Positions 1,566 to 58,182 of a stretch of DNA of 64,000 nucleotides are shown piece after piece; the first letter of the stretch is position 1; every line of letters starts with the position of its first letter. The position numbers and the translations under genes were made by a program. The stretch is from an uncultured virus (IMG/VR IMGVR_UViG_3300042860_003432). Taxonomy: Duplodnaviria > Heunggongvirae > Uroviricota > Caudoviricetes. The stretch lies in the IMG/VR virus record IMGVR_UViG_3300042860_003432, one strand, 5' to 3'. The notes under the pieces were generated by a model. That model had not been told where the DNA came from and searched no databases. It saw only the letters and a program-made list of their open reading frames with translations.

Positions 1566-1571
1566 ATAAAT

Positions 1572-1648
1572 TGGTCCCTTCACTACCATAGGAGATCGCC
1601 ACGGTTGGTAGGACAGCGGATCAGGCTGGTGGCTTCTTCATATGAAGT
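1572..1648 (-). ncRNA. tRNA-sized, CCA-ending non-canonical RNA or pseudo-tRNA
   Basis: 77 nt between tRNA-Tyr and tRNA-Arg ending GGGACCA; stems CTTCA/TGAAG, CAGC/GCTG, CTACCA/TGGTAG. Confidence 0.4.
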
Positions 1649-1831: not shown

Positions 1832-2061
1832 TTACCAGTGTGGGGCTCTCACCCACCATACACTATTTTTCTCCGTTATGGCCCGAACATATCGTGCACT
1901 CTGTTCTTGGAACATTACCCGCTTCTTTTGCCTTGGCTCACGTTTAGCGAATAATGTCCGGCTTATCGGGCGTCGTACCTGTCACTCGGTCTTGCAGAAA
2001 CGACCCACAAGATTGCTGATGTGTATGCTACGACCGCTAAGACTCTGCGTCTTACTGGTAA
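1832..2061 (-). ncRNA. Candidate ~230-nt structured ncRNA with tRNA-like termini
   Basis: Terminal stem TTACCAGT/ACTGGTAA, T-arm-like GTGGG-TGAGAGC-CCCAC, several long internal helices; lies inside the tRNA array. Confidence 0.6.
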
Positions 2062-2391: not shown

Positions 2392-2486
2392 ATAAATTGT
2401 AGAGAGTGTTTGGTCAAGAGTGCTTATTACGCTACATGAACCCATTGCGATATTCCAATGGCTGTACCCTTTACTCTCTGTAAATT

Positions 2487-2621
2487 TTATTTAAGATACT
2501 TTTTGGCCAATGGGGTCAATTCCATTCCAGCATCTTGAAGTTGTTTGACTGCTTCTTTTCTGGTTCTTATCTTGTTTTTTAATCTACCTTCTAGCGTTGG
2601 CAATTTGATTTTATTTTTCAT
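2487..2621 (-). CDS. Small basic hypothetical protein (44 aa, MKNKIKLPT...)
   Basis: ATG directly after tRNA-Cys; the longer ORF-track call overlaps tRNA genes. Confidence 0.5.
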   Translation of the reverse strand: MKNKIKLPTLEGRLKNKIRTRKEAVKQLQDAGMELTPLAKKYLK

Positions 2622-2623
2622 AT

Positions 2624-2701
2624 TGGAGTATGTGACTGGAATTGCACCAGCATAAATGTCTTTTGCAGAGACCGCCCTATCTATTTCGGGCACACACATA
2701 C
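2624..2701 (-). tRNA. tRNA-Cys(GCA)
   Basis: Acceptor GTATGTG/CACATAC, T discriminator, anticodon loop CTGCAAA, CCA. Confidence 0.85.
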
Positions 2702-5017: not shown

Positions 5018-5230
5018 TCAAGTACTTTTTTCATTATTGTATAACCGCCTAAACCTTTCAGTTATCTCATACGGATAATAAAAGAAAGTTTGGCCGTCAT
5101 CAAACTTGATAAAATCAAACTGTGTGTCTTTTACTTGTTTTGTGCCCGTATATGTTGCCATTTTTCCCGTAGGAATATGAACAAGTCGTTCATTTTCAGC
5201 GAAATGATGTTCTGCGTATGCGTTTTTCAT
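5018..5230 (-). CDS. Hypothetical protein
   Basis: 70-aa ORF with ATGA overlap with the RNA ligase stop. Confidence 0.6.
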   Translation of the reverse strand: MKNAYAEHHFAENERLVHIPTGKMATYTGTKQVKDTQFDFIKFDDGQTFFYYPYEITERFRRLYNNEKST

Positions 5231-6249
5231 TCTTTGTATTTCTCCAAGAAGCGGTTTGATATTGTCTTGAAACTCAAGCGGCCTTTTAGCACATCGCTGT
5301 GTGTCTCAACTGCTGGACGCCAAACAATACCTTCAGCGGGAGTACCGTTGTTATAGTTCAGTTCATTGGCAATGCTCAAAAAATAATCAACACTCTTGGG
5401 CACAATGTCATTACCAAGTTGAATAATATGCACAGTATCTACAATCTTGATGTTATGTTTCTTGCCAAAACTAATCAAATCTTCTCTGTTCAGGTATTTG
5501 CCACTATCAATGTCGTATAGATTGAAAAGATATAATTCAATCTCTTTGAGCCCAAGACGATTTGCTTGAATACCCGGTCCAACCATTTCACCTTGAATAC
5601 ATAGATTACGATCTTCGCCACGAAGAATCTCTTCAAGTTTGAGCTTGCGAGCCATCTTCCAATGAGCATTGTCTTCTGTTTCTTTTAGGTTGAGATTACG
5701 AGAGCATACACCAAACTCATCATCACGCCGATATGCTGTAAAACTTGTGCCGTCCATCTTTAGTGTGCCAATAAGCACCAATCCTTTATTGCTTGCTTCA
5801 ACAAGCACATTTGGCTCAGATTGCAGACGAACTTCATCTGTCTTATGTAAGAAAGATGGAAAGTTCCCTTTGACCATTCCGCTCAAATGAGCAGGCACAA
5901 CAGGTTCGTATTTTTCAACACCAACAAGTGATGTAACATCCTGACCAACTTCATATTCACCTTGGGGCAGAATAGAAAGCGGCAATGCCAATCCTTGCGA
6001 AAGTTGGCCACGAAGACGAATAGTTTTTACACGCAGTTTCTTATCTACTTCCTTACGAAGATGATCATTCCAACTTGCGATAGGAAGTACACTATCAATC
6101 TCAAAATATACACACTTGTCATTGGGCTGAAACTCATTCTTTTTTACAACACATTCCCAGCCAAGAACTTTGGCACAAAGAATGGCATCTGCACCATTTA
6201 TAGGGTTCAGTTCCTTGATAAGTTGAATAGATGCCAGTTTTCGGTCCAT
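5227..6249 (-). CDS. RNA ligase (Rnl2-like, DRB0094 family)
   Basis: RKLASIQ..I.PI.GADAI N-terminal domain; KMDGTS motif I, QGEMVG, EGIV, SFKTIS. Confidence 0.9.
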   Translation of the reverse strand: MDRKLASIQLIKELNPINGADAILCAKVLGWECVVKKNEFQPNDKCVYFEIDSVLPIASWNDHLRKEVDKKLRVKTIRLRGQLSQGLALPLSILPQGEYEVGQDVTSLVGVEKYEPVVPAHLSGMVKGNFPSFLHKTDEVRLQSEPNVLVEASNKGLVLIGTLKMDGTSFTAYRRDDEFGVCSRNLNLKETEDNAHWKMARKLKLEEILRGEDRNLCIQGEMVGPGIQANRLGLKEIELYLFNLYDIDSGKYLNREDLISFGKKHNIKIVDTVHIIQLGNDIVPKSVDYFLSIANELNYNNGTPAEGIVWRPAVETHSDVLKGRLSFKTISNRFLEKYKE

Positions 6250-6330
6250 AATGCTATTACCATACACTATAATAACCTTTTGTCAATATGTTTTTAGCCC
6301 TTGATATATATTTATTATAATCAAGCATAT

Positions 6331-56652: not shown

Positions 56653-58182
56653 ATGGCCAGACCCAAGAAAAACCCAGACTTTGTAGAGCTAAAATGTAAA
56701 ACTTGCAATACAGATTTCAGAGTGAAATGGCAGAAACGAAACAAGCAGAAGTATTGCTGTAAATCTTGTTCTAACAAAGACCCAGAAGTGTTAGCAAAAA
56801 TGCGAGCGTCGCAGGTAGAAACCTCACTAAAAAAGTACGGCACGGATCATCCTATGAAGACTTCTGAAGTTGTAAATAATTTCAAGAACTCTATGATGAC
56901 CAAATATGGTGTAGAACACGCATTGCAATCAAAAGCTATACTTGATAAAGCCAAATATACCAATGTACAAAACTATGGTGTAGAAAATGTATTGTCGTCA
57001 AAAAGTCCTGTAAGACAGCGGATAATGGAAACTTGGATTGAAAAGTACGGTGTGGACAATCCCGGCAAATCTAGAGATGTTATACAAAAACGAAGTAAAC
57101 TCAAACAAGAGAACCATTATGAAAAACTAAAAACTCTGTTTAATTCGCAAAATGTAAAGTGGTTATGCAAACAAGAGGACTATGCGGGCTATCATTTCTC
57201 GCATAGATACAAGTTTAATTGTAAAAAATGTAATAATGGATTCGAGTCTACAGTATATGTGCCAACAGATGTGTTCTGTGAACTATGCCATCCTGAAAAG
57301 AAAGAAACCGCAGAAACTGGTTTGCAAGAGTTCTTGGTGTCTGAAGTAAAGGGTAAAACTATACTACGAAATAATAGAGTTGTGTTGGATGGCAAGGAGC
57401 TTGATTTTTACATCCCCGATCTTTCGTTCGCTATAGAATATAACGGGTTGTATTGGCACAGAGCCAGCCATCCCAGAATGTCAAAAAACTATCATCTGGA
57501 AAAGACTGAGAAGTGTGCCGAGAAAAATATACACCTCATTCATATACTTGAAAGCGAATGGAAGCATAAGCAGAATATTGTAAAGTCAATCATACGTCAG
57601 TATGTTGGCGGGCACGTTGCCAAGATCCACGGACGAGAATGCGAAATACGAAAAGTAGACACCAAAGAAAAGAATGAGTTCTTGAACAAGTGTCATATGC
57701 AAGGTGAGGACAAATCATCTGTCGCATATGGCTTATACTATAAAAACTCCTTGGTCAGCATAATGACGTTTTGTAGAAGTAGATTTGACCGAAAAGTTGA
57801 ATGGGAAATATCAAGGTTCTGCAATGCGTTGAATACTCGTGTGCACGGTGGAGCAACAAAGTTGTTTAGTATATTCCTATTGGATTATAAGCCAAAGAGC
57901 GTAGTAAGCTACTCTGACCGCAGATTGTTCTCTGGAGACTTGTATTCTAAGCTAGGAATGACCTTTGAAGGAAATACAGCACAAGGTTATCATTATGTAT
58001 CTCCCGACTTTAGTACAGTATTCAACCGACAGATGTTCCAAAAATCTAAACTGGCAAAAAAGTTAAAAACATTTGATCCCAACTTATCTGAATGGGAAAA
58101 TATGAAACTGAACGGATTTGACCGTATATGGGATTGCGGTCATACAAAATGGATATGGAGAAGCTCTACAACTTCTCAATAA
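56653..58182 (+). CDS. Putative homing endonuclease (Zn ribbon, KYG repeats, PD-(D/E)xK, Hef-like C-terminal domain)
   Basis: KKYG/TKYGV/EKYGV repeats, ELDFY...IEYNGLYWH, ESEW, WEISRFC, SYSDRR, IWDCG. Confidence 0.8.
   Translation: MARPKKNPDFVELKCKTCNTDFRVKWQKRNKQKYCCKSCSNKDPEVLAKMRASQVETSLKKYGTDHPMKTSEVVNNFKNSMMTKYGVEHALQSKAILDKAKYTNVQNYGVENVLSSKSPVRQRIMETWIEKYGVDNPGKSRDVIQKRSKLKQENHYEKLKTLFNSQNVKWLCKQEDYAGYHFSHRYKFNCKKCNNGFESTVYVPTDVFCELCHPEKKETAETGLQEFLVSEVKGKTILRNNRVVLDGKELDFYIPDLSFAIEYNGLYWHRASHPRMSKNYHLEKTEKCAEKNIHLIHILESEWKHKQNIVKSIIRQYVGGHVAKIHGRECEIRKVDTKEKNEFLNKCHMQGEDKSSVAYGLYYKNSLVSIMTFCRSRFDRKVEWEISRFCNALNTRVHGGATKLFSIFLLDYKPKSVVSYSDRRLFSGDLYSKLGMTFEGNTAQGYHYVSPDFSTVFNRQMFQKSKLAKKLKTFDPNLSEWENMKLNGFDRIWDCGHTKWIWRSSTTSQ

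What the first reader, a model, noticed from the sequence alone, without database searches (positions are those of the whole stretch)
1832..2061. ~230-nt highly structured RNA with tRNA-like ends inside the tRNA array
Seen on the minus strand: closing stem TTACCAGT/ACTGGTAA; 5' hairpin AAGAC-GCAGA-GTCTT; 3' T-arm-like GTGGG-TGAGAGC-CCCAC; long-range helix CATACAC/GTGTATG; crossing helix GTCGTA/TACGAC (pseudoknot); GCCCGA/TCGGGC; a 13-bp helix GACATTATTCGCT/AGCGGGTAATGTT; CTTGTGG/CTGCAAG. It has no encoded CCA, no tmRNA Ala acceptor and no RNase P GAGGAAAGUCC. Inference: an unrecognised phage ncRNA, perhaps cut out by tRNA-processing nucleases, analogous to T4 RNAs C/D or Y-like RNAs.
Basis: partly seen in the sequence, partly recalled or inferred. 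Interest (0 to 1): 0.75.

Follow-up and report, generated by a model that had tools for sequence, protein, structure and literature searches.

The report
Unknown folded RNA among phage tRNAs
A lake phage related to T4 carries, between two of its tRNA genes, a conserved 230-base gene for a folded RNA with tRNA-like ends that matches no catalogued RNA family and whose job is still unknown.

Summary
The record is an uncultivated T4-like phage from lake water.

The block has no Rfam 15 match even at E<=10. ARAGORN finds no tRNA or tmRNA at default settings. It folds better than shuffles (z = -2.98).

The same block occurs once each in 10 other IMG/VR contigs and 8 metagenome contigs. These give 14 distinct sequences, 82-99.6% identical. 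In all 14 further loci checked it lies on the tRNA strand.

Matching changes on both sides support four helices. Five helices never vary, including the closing stem, the T-arm-like hairpin and the proposed pseudoknot.

The antisense 79-codon frame is broken by stops in two variants, so it is not a gene.

My reading is an uncatalogued stable RNA of the kind of T4 RNA C and D, probably excised by tRNA-processing enzymes. Processing and function are inferred. The family is narrow and covariation is limited.

The parts
1832..2061 (-). Whole RNA element (230 nt), as bounded by the closing stem. The conserved block extends about 2 nt upstream and about 9 nt downstream (UUCAUUUAU spacer).
   Evidence: Alignments. 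Conservation starts at UUUACCAGU where upstream flanks differ (L007, L038, L054) and ends at the spacer before the next tRNA where downstream flanks differ (L002, L006, L038). CM R1 scores 297 bits here.
2054..2061 (-). P1 5' strand (UUACCAGU), acceptor-like
   Evidence: Pairs with 1832-1839. Paired in all 13 of 14 distinct sequences that have both letters (the other has a 1-nt deletion). One U-A to U-G change.
1832..1839 (-). P1 3' strand (ACUGGUAA). Followed by UUC, not CCA.
   Evidence: The A|UUC end is invariant in all 14 distinct sequences.
2039..2053 (-). H1 hairpin AAGAC-GCARA-GUCUU, in the place of a D-arm
   Evidence: C-G to U-A double change in L038. One U.U mismatch in L054.
1972..2034 (-). 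P2 (GUCGUA 2034-2029 / UACGAC 1977-1972), enclosing P3
   Evidence: Invariant in 14 of 14, so untested by covariation.
1990..2012 (-). P3 hairpin, 9 bp (UCUUGUGGG / UCUGCAAGA), loop UCGYU
   Evidence: 100% of cells paired. 4 of 9 pairs vary and all stay paired. One double change. The diverged contigs of runs X19/X20 show U to A at column 57 together with G to U at column 69.
2021..2027 (-). Pseudoknot candidate, 5' strand CAUACAC
   Evidence: Perfect 7-bp complement of 1857-1863. Invariant. About 1-2 such 7-mers are expected by chance in 230 nt (my estimate).
1857..1863 (-). Pseudoknot candidate, 3' strand GUGUAUG, directly 5' of the T-arm
   Evidence: Invariant.
1873..1969 (-). P4 (CCG 1969-1967 / CGG 1875-1873) and P5 (GCC 1962-1960 / GGC 1883-1881), closing a three-way junction with P6 and P7
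Evidence: 100% paired. Pair 103:182 changes C-G to U-A in 4 of 14, and pair 102:183 changes G-C to G-U in 2 of 14.
1909..1959 (-). P6 long hairpin (14 bp) with a variable tip
   Evidence: 5 of 14 pairs have double changes. An 8-nt deletion is confined to the tip in L038, L054 and L075. However, two pairs are U.U in 8-9 of 14, and 87.8% of cells are paired. It holds 26 of the 57 variable columns.
1885..1906 (-). P7 hairpin GAACA / UGUUC with an invariant 12-nt loop that contains the palindrome GUGCAC (1899-1894)
   Evidence: Invariant in 14 of 14. That the palindrome serves for pairing two copies is my inference.
1840..1856 (-). T-arm-like hairpin GUGGG-UGNGARY-CCCAC, stacked on P1
   Evidence: The stem is invariant. 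The loop varies (UGAGAGC, UGCGAAC, UGCGAGU) but keeps U at loop position 1 and A at loop position 5. ARAGORN uses it as a T-arm at a relaxed threshold.

Best explanation
It is a gene for a stable, structured non-coding RNA of about 230 nt that belongs to the phage's tRNA operon.

Shown:
- It is a discrete block kept in one copy, on the tRNA strand, in every related contig that has it.
- Four of its helices tolerate changes only when pairing is kept.
- Length changes are confined to a hairpin tip and an A-run.
- No reading frame is conserved.

Inferred:
- It is transcribed with the flanking tRNAs as one precursor.
- Its closing stem (7-8 bp) stacked on a 5-bp T-arm-like hairpin makes a tRNA-like minihelix.
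- The host's tRNA-processing enzymes recognise this minihelix. RNase P would cut at its 5' side. At its 3' side, RNase P would cut at the next tRNA, followed by trimming, or an RNase Z-type enzyme would cut after the unpaired A.
- The RNA would thus be released and protected like a tRNA.

The conserved core is then the working part. It consists of P2/P3, a three-way junction P5/P6/P7 with an invariant loop, and invariant joining strands that may form a pseudoknot.

My best guess for the function is that the RNA binds a protein that handles tRNAs, from the host or the phage, as a mimic or decoy. I give that guess about 0.3. It may act as a dimer through the GUGCAC loop.

The confidence given here is for 'real structured RNA gene excised from the tRNA precursor', not for the function.
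For: - Family search: no match in Rfam 15.
- Fold energy: z = -2.98.
- Homologues: 10 IMG/VR contigs and 8 of 9 metagenome hits. There is one copy in the window's own record and one CM match in each of the 5 related records that hold it.
- Block edges: they coincide with the closing stem where flanks differ.
- Orientation: in 14 of 14 further loci and in the window, the element is co-oriented with the tRNAs. tRNA-Trp lies within 10 nt upstream in 9 loci plus the window.
- Covariation: 97% of 825 cells are paired. 7 pairs have double changes, against 2.5 +/- 1.0 in shuffles (1 of 500 shuffles reached this). Slid controls give 28-48% paired and 0-1 such pairs. P5 adds C-G to U-A in 4 of 14.
- Indels: the 8-nt deletion sits at the P6 tip and the 1-2-nt deletions in an A-run.
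- Coding: the antisense frame is open (78 codons) in 5 variants but has 1-2 stops in L038 and L054. No sense frame is kept. No PHROG match.
- tRNA-like ends: ARAGORN recognises the acceptor, a D-like arm and the T-arm when its threshold is lowered to 80%.
- Expression hint: one 193-nt contig from a freshwater metatranscriptome library lies on 1858-2050 with no differences.
- Precedent: T4 rnaC and rnaD lie in the T4 tRNA cluster. rnaC has the same end plan. Both are detected by Northern blot, with function unknown (PMC9697503, passages read).
Against: - The family is narrow and shallow. Pairwise identity is 82-99.6%.
- The element is no better conserved than its surroundings. Window against L038 gives 83% for the element and 85-87% for the neighbouring coding DNA. 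Overall identity therefore proves nothing.
- Five of the helices never vary, including the two that define the tRNA-like ends and the pseudoknot.
- P6 has U.U mismatches at two pairs in 8-9 of 14 sequences.
- The covariation events are few and shared by related sequences. The tool itself warns that shuffles overstate significance for related sequences.
- CM R1 finds nothing in 23 of 29 related records, including two complete genomes of 297 kb and 230 kb. The RNA is therefore dispensable for close relatives.
- The T-loop is not canonical (UGAGAGC, not UUCRANY), there is no CCA, and the Rfam tRNA model does not match even locally.
- The RNA-library contig has depth 2.9 and could come from carried-over DNA. 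Contigs cannot show RNA ends.
- No processing, partner or function was tested.
Confidence: 0.6

Rival explanations
1. It is a decayed or insertion-bearing tRNA gene, or a tRNA with an intron. The ends are what is left of a tRNA, and the interior is an insertion with no function of its own.
For: The acceptor-like stem, D-like hairpin and T-arm-like hairpin are in tRNA order. Relatives have other oversized tRNA-like gap elements of 123-124 nt.
Against: - ARAGORN gives nothing at default thresholds, with or without introns.
- The proposed anticodon stem has a mismatch and a wobble in 4 pairs.
- The 'anticodon' UCG becomes UCA, and the stem changes without compensation, in L038-type sequences.
- 145 nt is too short for a group I intron (recalled sizes), and no intron family matches.
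- The interior holds the most strictly invariant stretches and three of the four covarying helices. That is not expected of junk.
Confidence: 0.1
2. It is a small mobile DNA insertion (MITE-like). Its 8-bp terminal inverted repeats TTACCAGT/ACTGGTAA happen to look like an RNA closing stem.
For: It has perfect terminal inverted repeats flanked by A/T-rich spacers. It is absent from most related phages. Its upstream neighbour differs in some contigs.
Against: - There is one copy in the window's record and one match in each related record that holds it. It was never found outside a tRNA array and is always on the tRNA strand (14 of 14 loci plus the window).
- The changed neighbours are explained by insertions next to it, such as the ORF of about 650 nt between tRNA-Trp and the element in L068, L078 and L079. 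They do not require the element to have moved.
- Internal helices covary.
- There were 0 hits in 185,579 prokaryote species genomes with a degenerate 38-nt pattern.
Confidence: 0.04
3. The region encodes the 79-aa protein on the plus strand (1827-2066), or another small protein.
For: An ATG-initiated 79-codon frame exactly fills the gap. It is open in 5 of 7 variants checked.
Against: - The frame has 1-2 stops in L038 and L054, because the 8-nt and 1-nt deletions shift it.
- The product is rich in Cys, Arg and Leu and has no PHROG family.
- It lies antisense to a tRNA operon.
- The only sense-strand ATG frame (27 codons) loses its ATG in L038-type sequences.
Confidence: 0.03
4. It is a very divergent member of a known class with tRNA-like parts or a role in tRNA processing: tmRNA, a minimal RNase P RNA, or a Y-like RNA.
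For: The order acceptor strand, small hairpin, long-range helix next to the T-arm, T-arm, acceptor strand is the plan of the tmRNA tRNA-like domain (recalled). The size is near that of the smallest RNase P RNAs (recalled).
Against: - No tmRNA, RNase P, Y RNA, 6S, SRP, GOLLD or ROOL model matches at E<=10 on 551 nt.
- ARAGORN's tmRNA search is negative even at an 80% threshold.
- Position 3:70 is C:G, not G:U.
- No short frame is conserved.
- There is a hairpin between the long-range helix and P1, which RNase P RNA lacks (recalled).
- No Ro60/TROVE or SmpB was found among the ORFs scanned. Only about 30% of the genome is in hand.
Confidence: 0.04
5. It is a non-functional spacer. Its apparent structure and conservation reflect only the recent common ancestry of a few closely related lake phages.
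For: The element's identity equals that of the neighbouring DNA. The few covariation events are shared by descent. 23 of 29 related records lack it.
Against: - Substitutions are very unevenly spread. 26 of 57 variable columns fall in the 51-column P6 hairpin. The T-stem, P2, P7 with its 12-nt loop and the pseudoknot strands have none, and P1 has a single variable pair.
- Stem changes keep pairing (97% of cells, against 28-48% for slid partners).
- Fold z = -2.98.
- Spacers elsewhere in this array are 4-10 nt long.
Confidence: 0.12

Closest known systems
Bacteriophage T4 small stable RNAs: species 1 (rnaC, 139 nt) and species 2 (rnaD, 119 nt)
   Same: They are non-tRNA RNAs encoded inside the tRNA cluster of a T4-type phage, on the tRNA strand, next to tRNA genes. 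rnaC ends in a T-arm (CCGGG-UUCGAAU-CCCGG) followed by a strand that pairs imperfectly with its 5' end, so tRNA-like ends close an enlarged interior. Their function is unknown (PMC9697503, passage read).
   Different: There is no sequence or covariance-model similarity. R1 with filters off gives at most 7.1 bits in the T4 tRNA region, on T-arms only. The element is 230 nt against 139 and 119 nt. Its T-loop is non-canonical. It has a three-way junction and a candidate pseudoknot. It is not a member of those families.
tRNA-like domain of tmRNA
   Same: An acceptor stem stacked on a T-arm, with the anticodon arm replaced by a long-range helix that leads into a large structured body. It is also an RNase P substrate (review PMC11143913, passage read).
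   Different: There is no encoded or implied Ala identity pair (C3:G70), no CCA and no conserved tag frame. ARAGORN and all Rfam tmRNA models are negative. About 230 nt would be very short for a tmRNA (recalled sizes).
Bacterial Y-RNA-like RNAs (YrlA), which mimic tRNA
   Same: A non-coding RNA that combines a tRNA-like module with another functional module. Some are phage-encoded (PMC4201824, search listing and abstract only).
   Different: In YrlA the RNA ends form the Ro-binding stem and the tRNA-like part is internal (recalled). Here the ends are the tRNA-like part. No Ro60/TROVE gene was found near it, and there is no Rfam match.
Large ornate phage-associated RNAs, GOLLD and ROOL
   Same: They are uncharacterised structured RNAs often encoded near tRNAs in phages. 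They form homo-oligomers (PMC12286853, abstract seen in the listing). An invariant palindromic loop here could likewise pair copies.
   Different: Those RNAs are two to three times longer (recalled) and have Rfam models, which do not match here. No oligomerisation was tested.
Other orphan structured RNAs in phage tRNA arrays noted earlier in this scan (e1-5842295, e1-5990096, e1-6036171)
   Same: They share the same setting: uncatalogued folded RNAs wedged between phage tRNA genes. One family lies after tRNA-Trp with a loop suited to pairing two copies. One case is from a lake phage. These are unchecked AI notes.
   Different: No look-alike stretch of this element is on record in the scan.

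Membership tests
tRNA (Rfam RF00005) | Cloverleaf with anticodon arm that scores at or above the family threshold (29 bits) | tested here: not met
   There is no tRNA match on 1832-2061 at gathering score or at E<=10. The flanking tRNAs score 35-65 bits. ARAGORN finds none at default settings.
tRNA (Rfam RF00005) | 7-bp acceptor stem coaxial with a 5-bp T-stem and a 7-nt T-loop with U54 and A58 | tested here: met
   UACCAGU/ACUGGUA abuts GUGGG-UGAGAGC-CCCAC. U at loop position 1 and A at position 5 are kept in the three loop variants. Loop positions 2-3 are not the canonical UC.
tRNA (Rfam RF00005) | 3' CCA, encoded as in all other tRNAs of this array | tested here: not met
   The element ends A-UUC, invariant in 14 of 14.
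Intron-containing tRNA | A valid tRNA remains after removal of an intron from the anticodon loop | tested here: not met
   ARAGORN -i finds none at default settings. At an 80% threshold it gives a weak tRNA-Arg(tcg) with a poor anticodon stem. The 'anticodon' and stem change without compensation in variants. No intron family matches.
tmRNA | Detected by tmRNA models (ARAGORN; Rfam tmRNA families) | tested here: not met
   (also negative at -ps80).
tmRNA | G3:U70 alanine identity pair and a conserved tag reading frame (features recalled) | tested here: not met
   Position 3:70 is C:G. No frame is conserved across variants.
RNase P RNA | Match to bacterial, archaeal or type T RNase P models, and the conserved P4 strands | tested here: not met
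   No RNase P family appears at E<=10. The GAGGAAAGUCC-type motif (recalled) is absent on reading.
T4 rnaC / rnaD | Sequence or structure homology to the T4 RNAs | tested here: not met
   R1 with filters off on the T4 tRNA region gives a best score of 7.1 bits, on a tRNA T-arm, and 2.7 bits on the rnaC T-arm.
T4 rnaC / rnaD | Encoded within the tRNA cluster of a T4-type phage, on the tRNA strand | tested here: met
T4 rnaC / rnaD | Accumulates as a discrete stable RNA in infected cells | not testable with these tools
   The only data are one 193-nt contig from an RNA library on 1858-2050. Contigs cannot show ends or levels.
Y RNA / YrlA | A Ro60 (TROVE) partner gene and a Ro-binding stem | tested here: inconclusive
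   There is no TROVE hit among the 12 neighbouring ORFs (Pfam) or the 22 ORFs scanned against PHROGs. Only about 30% of the genome is in hand. No Rfam match.
GOLLD / ROOL / other Rfam ornate RNAs | Match to the family model | tested here: not met

The most novel reading that the evidence does not exclude
The RNA is the founding member of a new class of phage 'tRNA-handle' RNAs.
- A minimal tRNA minihelix gets it cut out, given a CCA end and perhaps charged or bound by tRNA-recognising factors.
- A pseudoknotted core with an invariant self-complementary GUGCAC loop makes it dimerise.
- It then acts as a decoy or sponge against a host tRNA-directed defence or processing enzyme.
- A phage RNA ligase gene lies about 3 kb upstream of the element, beyond the start of the array.
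Probability: 0.12. Interest if true: 0.8.

Novelty: new variant of a known kind. Interest (0 to 1): 0.5.

Why it matters
T4's RNA C and D have been known for about fifty years and still have no function. This element shows that a T4-like lake phage keeps a larger and differently built RNA of the same kind inside its tRNA operon.

A second family sharing the same plan (tRNA-like ends, a conserved core) gives a comparative handle on what such RNAs do. It also gives a concrete set of constructs for RNase P, RNase Z, CCA-adding and binding assays.

If the tRNA-like handle is a general way for phages to produce stable RNAs from tRNA precursors, many 'long spacers' in phage tRNA arrays are unannotated genes. 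Earlier notes of this scan and two oversized tRNA-like elements seen here in relatives point the same way.

The value is limited by the narrow distribution and by the lack of a cultured host.

Tried and rejected
- Rfam at permissive thresholds on 551 nt and on 3 kb gave nothing on the element.
- tmRNA and intron-tRNA searches with ARAGORN gave only a sub-threshold call, which I rejected.
- Two hits from exact-word scans were chance matches and were dropped. L056 is a coding region with no nhmmer hit. L073 has no CM hit.
- Four further pattern scans added no new homologue: two degenerate scans of viral contigs, one of genome contigs (0 hits), and one for a hypothetical deletion form (0 hits).
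- CM R1 found no distant homologue. I searched 31 sources around relatives of the RNA ligase (only the window and L038 matched) and 29 whole related records (5 real matches, all already known).
- Overall conservation is not an argument. The element is no more conserved than neighbouring genes.
- The changes at columns 28-29 and 199-200 in L074 and L075 are not consistently compensatory (my reading).
- No tag-like or SD-led mini-frame is conserved.
- In read laying, the RNA-library run X17 covered nothing of the flanking tRNAs.
- Contigs of X19/X20 join 1860 to 1957, skipping 96 nt. They were laid at 85% likeness with a 30-letter side, and it is not known what lies between. This may be a shorter or diverged relative or an artefact, and I could not retrieve the contigs.
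- Four literature searches found no paper describing this RNA. The terms were: tRNA-like / phage / tRNA array / structured RNA; species 1 RNA / bacteriophage T4 / stable RNA / RNase P; jumbo phage / tRNA / noncoding RNA / tRNA-like / freshwater; and one failed call.
- The catalogue of about 10,000 IMG/VR candidate RNAs (PMC10690425, passages read) may contain it. I did not open its supplementary tables.
Full report
**Setting**

The window is 64 kb of a 68-kb IMG/VR virus record that CheckV rates about 30% complete. Its genes mark a T4-type myovirus: RIIA, a family B DNA polymerase, a clamp loader, an Rnl-type RNA ligase, ribonucleotide reductase, a DnaB-like helicase and a tail sheath.

The minus strand of 1328-2784 is a tRNA array. 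ARAGORN finds 8 tRNAs. Rfam adds tRNAs at 1749-1822 (anticodon GUC) and 2153-2224, and one more at 276-347. A cloverleaf with anticodon GCA at 2627-2698 is missed by both tools.

All tRNAs I read end in an encoded CCA. They are separated by A/U-rich spacers of 4-10 nt. Sixteen lake-water DNA runs hold the 761-nt stretch around the element in full.

**Observation**

The minimum-free-energy fold is -72.2 kcal/mol, with z = -2.98 against 200 dinucleotide shuffles. Three shuffles fold as well.

Nothing in Rfam 15 matches, at gathering thresholds or at E<=10 on a 551-nt stretch. ARAGORN reports no tRNA or tmRNA.

**Relatives**

Exact-word scans of IMG/VR with three different parts of the element found 10 contigs, plus one chance match, L056, which is a coding region with no profile hit. 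Two degenerate patterns found the same 10 contigs.

A two-word pattern found 9 metagenome contigs. Eight match the covariance model and one, L073, is chance. A scan of one genome per prokaryote species found none.

I aligned the window and 6 distinct IMG/VR sequences. I left out L003, L004 and L005, which are identical to the window over the element, and L008, which is identical to L007. I then added the 8 metagenome sequences. This gives 15 rows and 14 distinct sequences, with pairwise identity of 82-99.6%.

There are two main types. The window type is 235 aligned columns. The L038/L054/L075 type has an 8-nt deletion and a 1-2-nt deletion. L074 is intermediate.

**Distribution**

A covariance model (R1) found the element only in the window and L038 among 31 sources around relatives of the neighbouring RNA ligase. 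Among 29 whole related records it found only the 5 already known. The 23 records without any match include two complete genomes of 297 kb and 230 kb. The family is therefore confined to a small clade.

**A discrete module on the tRNA strand**

Where flanks differ, conservation begins at UUUACCAGU and ends at the spacer UUCAUUUAU. The flanks differ upstream in L007, L038 and L054, and downstream in L002, L006 and L038.

In 14 of 14 further loci and in the window, the element is co-oriented with the tRNAs. tRNA-Trp ends within 10 nt of it in 9 loci and the window. In L068, L078 and L079 an insert of about 650 nt lies between them; in L068 this insert carries an ORF. In L069 (the same record as L038), tRNA-Asn precedes it. 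There is one copy in the window's own record and one CM match in each related record that holds it.

**Coding**

The plus-strand frame 1827-2066 (79 aa) exactly fills the gap. It is open in the five window-type variants checked, but has 1-2 stops in L038 and L054 because the two deletions shift it. Its product has no PHROG family. No sense-strand frame is kept. I reject coding.

**Structure**

On the 14 distinct sequences, the model with eight helices has 97.0% of 825 cells paired. It has 7 pairs with changes on both sides, where shuffles give 2.5 +/- 1.0 and 1 of 500 reaches 7. With partners slid by 1-3 columns, only 28-48% of cells pair and 0-1 such pairs are seen.

The support is uneven across helices:
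- Hairpin H1 has 1 double change.
- P3 has 4 varying pairs, all kept paired.
- P6 has 5 double changes.
- P6 also has U.U at two positions in 8-9 of 14 sequences.
- P1 varies at one pair only (U-A to U-G in one sequence). P2, the candidate pseudoknot, P7 and the T-stem never vary, so they are untested.

I propose instead P4 (CCG/CGG, invariant) and P5 (GCC/GGC). Together they are 100% paired, with C-G to U-A in 4 of 14 and G-C to G-U in 2 of 14. P5 closes a three-way junction with P6 and P7.

Of the 57 variable columns, 26 lie in the 51-column P6 hairpin. The 8-nt deletion removes its tip. The 12-nt loop of P7, which holds the palindrome GUGCAC, and long joining strands are invariant.

The element as a whole is no better conserved than its neighbours. 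Window against L038 gives 83% for the element and 85-87% for adjacent coding DNA. The evidence therefore lies in the pattern of change, not its amount. The number of independent events is small.

**tRNA-like ends**

P1 (7-8 bp) abuts a 5-bp stem with a G-C closing pair and a 7-nt loop. The loop keeps U at position 1 and A at position 5 in its three variants: UGAGAGC, UGCGAAC and UGCGAGU. This is the geometry of an acceptor stem stacked on a T-arm.

ARAGORN accepts these ends and H1 as acceptor, D-arm and T-arm only when its threshold is lowered to 80% and a 145-nt 'intron' is allowed. Its anticodon stem is poor and does not covary.

The pattern 'acceptor plus T-arm closing 110-420 nt' occurs 0.45 times per shuffled window.

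The same scan found two other oversized tRNA-like elements in relatives' arrays. L033:13498-13621 is 124 nt, has a canonical T-loop and has no CCA. L044:4369-4491 is 123 nt and has a CCA. Neither is called by Rfam or ARAGORN.

**Expression**

One run from a freshwater metatranscriptome library holds a single 193-nt contig that lies on 1858-2050 without a difference, at depth 2.9. This is compatible with a stable RNA but does not show it. The library may carry DNA, and contigs show neither ends nor strand.

Two runs that are probably DNA hold more diverged pieces of the 5' part. Their differences include a double change that keeps a P3 pair (column 57 U to A with column 69 G to U) and a joint that skips 96 nt. 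I could not retrieve these contigs.

**Mechanism**

Shown: the element has a conserved place and strand in the tRNA operon, several of its helices are under structural constraint, and it is not a protein gene.

Inferred from established knowledge of tRNA maturation: an acceptor/T-arm minihelix suffices for recognition by RNase P and the CCA-adding enzyme (recalled; other non-tRNA RNase P substrates are listed in PMC11143913, passage read). On that basis the RNA would be transcribed with the tRNAs and cut out through its tRNA-like handle. Its conserved core would then be the functional part.

I put about 0.6 on 'real structured RNA excised from the tRNA precursor'. Within that, I put about 0.3 on a mimic or decoy for a tRNA-handling protein, possibly acting as a dimer through the GUGCAC loop. 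Neither the partner nor the dimer was tested.

**Comparison**

The closest known things are T4 RNA C and RNA D. They lie in the T4 tRNA cluster. RNA C has a T-arm and an acceptor-like closure around an enlarged interior. Both are made late in infection and have no known function (PMC9697503, passages read).

There is no homology to them, so this is a different family of the same kind. tmRNA, RNase P RNA, Y-like RNAs, GOLLD/ROOL and intron-bearing tRNAs were each tested and not met (see the membership table).

Earlier notes of this scan list many orphan structured RNAs in phage tRNA arrays, but no look-alike of this one. They are unchecked leads. They make the setting less surprising.

**Verdict**

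This is a real, uncatalogued and probably functional structured RNA gene in a narrow clade of T4-like lake phages. It is a new variant of a known but unexplained kind. The fold is partly supported, and processing and function are inferred. Interest is moderate.

Noticed in passing
window 2392-2486 (-): A 95-nt spacer upstream of tRNA-Asn has a 7-bp closing stem AGAGAGU/ACUCUCU and an internal 6-bp hairpin. Fold z = -2.19. It is about 80% conserved in L038. It has no Rfam match and no CCA, and may be a second non-tRNA RNA of the array.
   Followed up: partly
window 2627-2698 (-): A cloverleaf with acceptor GUAUGUG/CACAUAC, anticodon loop CUGCAAA (GCA, Cys) and a 3' CCA is missed by ARAGORN and by the Rfam tRNA model. 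Its only hit is a sub-threshold RAGATH-21 match at E 0.035. It is probably an odd tRNA-Cys with a large D-loop.
   Followed up: partly
window 1566-1648 (-): An 83-nt spacer between tRNA-Tyr and tRNA-Arg ends in ...GGGACCA. It has no significant fold (z = -0.37) and no family match.
   Followed up: partly
L033:13498-13621 (+) and L044:4369-4491 (+): Two oversized tRNA-like elements of 124 and 123 nt lie in the tRNA arrays of related phages. Each has a 7-bp acceptor stem, a D-like arm and a canonical T-arm around an enlarged interior. The first has no CCA and the second has one. Neither is called by ARAGORN or Rfam.
   Followed up: partly
L068:1743-2438 (-), and the same place in L078 and L079: An insert of about 650 nt lies between tRNA-Trp and the element in three contigs. 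In L068, the only one whose ORFs I listed, it carries an ORF on the tRNA strand, of about 200 aa from its first ATG. I did not search it against any family library.
   Followed up: no
window 2487-2613 (-): A small basic ORF of about 42 codons (MKNKIKLPTLEGRL...) sits inside the tRNA array between the Cys-like tRNA and the 95-nt spacer. The longer TTG-initiated frame 2487-2744 has no Pfam match.
   Followed up: partly
window 5227-6267 (-): An Rnl-type RNA ligase (PHROG 968; Pfam RNA_ligase plus a PHA02142 OB-fold domain) lies about 3 kb upstream of the tRNA array. It served as the anchor for finding related phages.
   Followed up: yes
window 1860/1957, in contigs of runs X19 and X20: Contigs of two aquatic runs, probably DNA, carry a more diverged copy of the 5' part (about 88% identical). 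They join position 1957 to 1860, skipping 96 nt, and it is not known what lies between. This may be a shorter relative of about 135 nt or an artefact.
   Followed up: partly
window 56653-58182 (+): A 509-aa HNH/homing endonuclease gene lies on the opposite strand to its neighbours.
   Followed up: no
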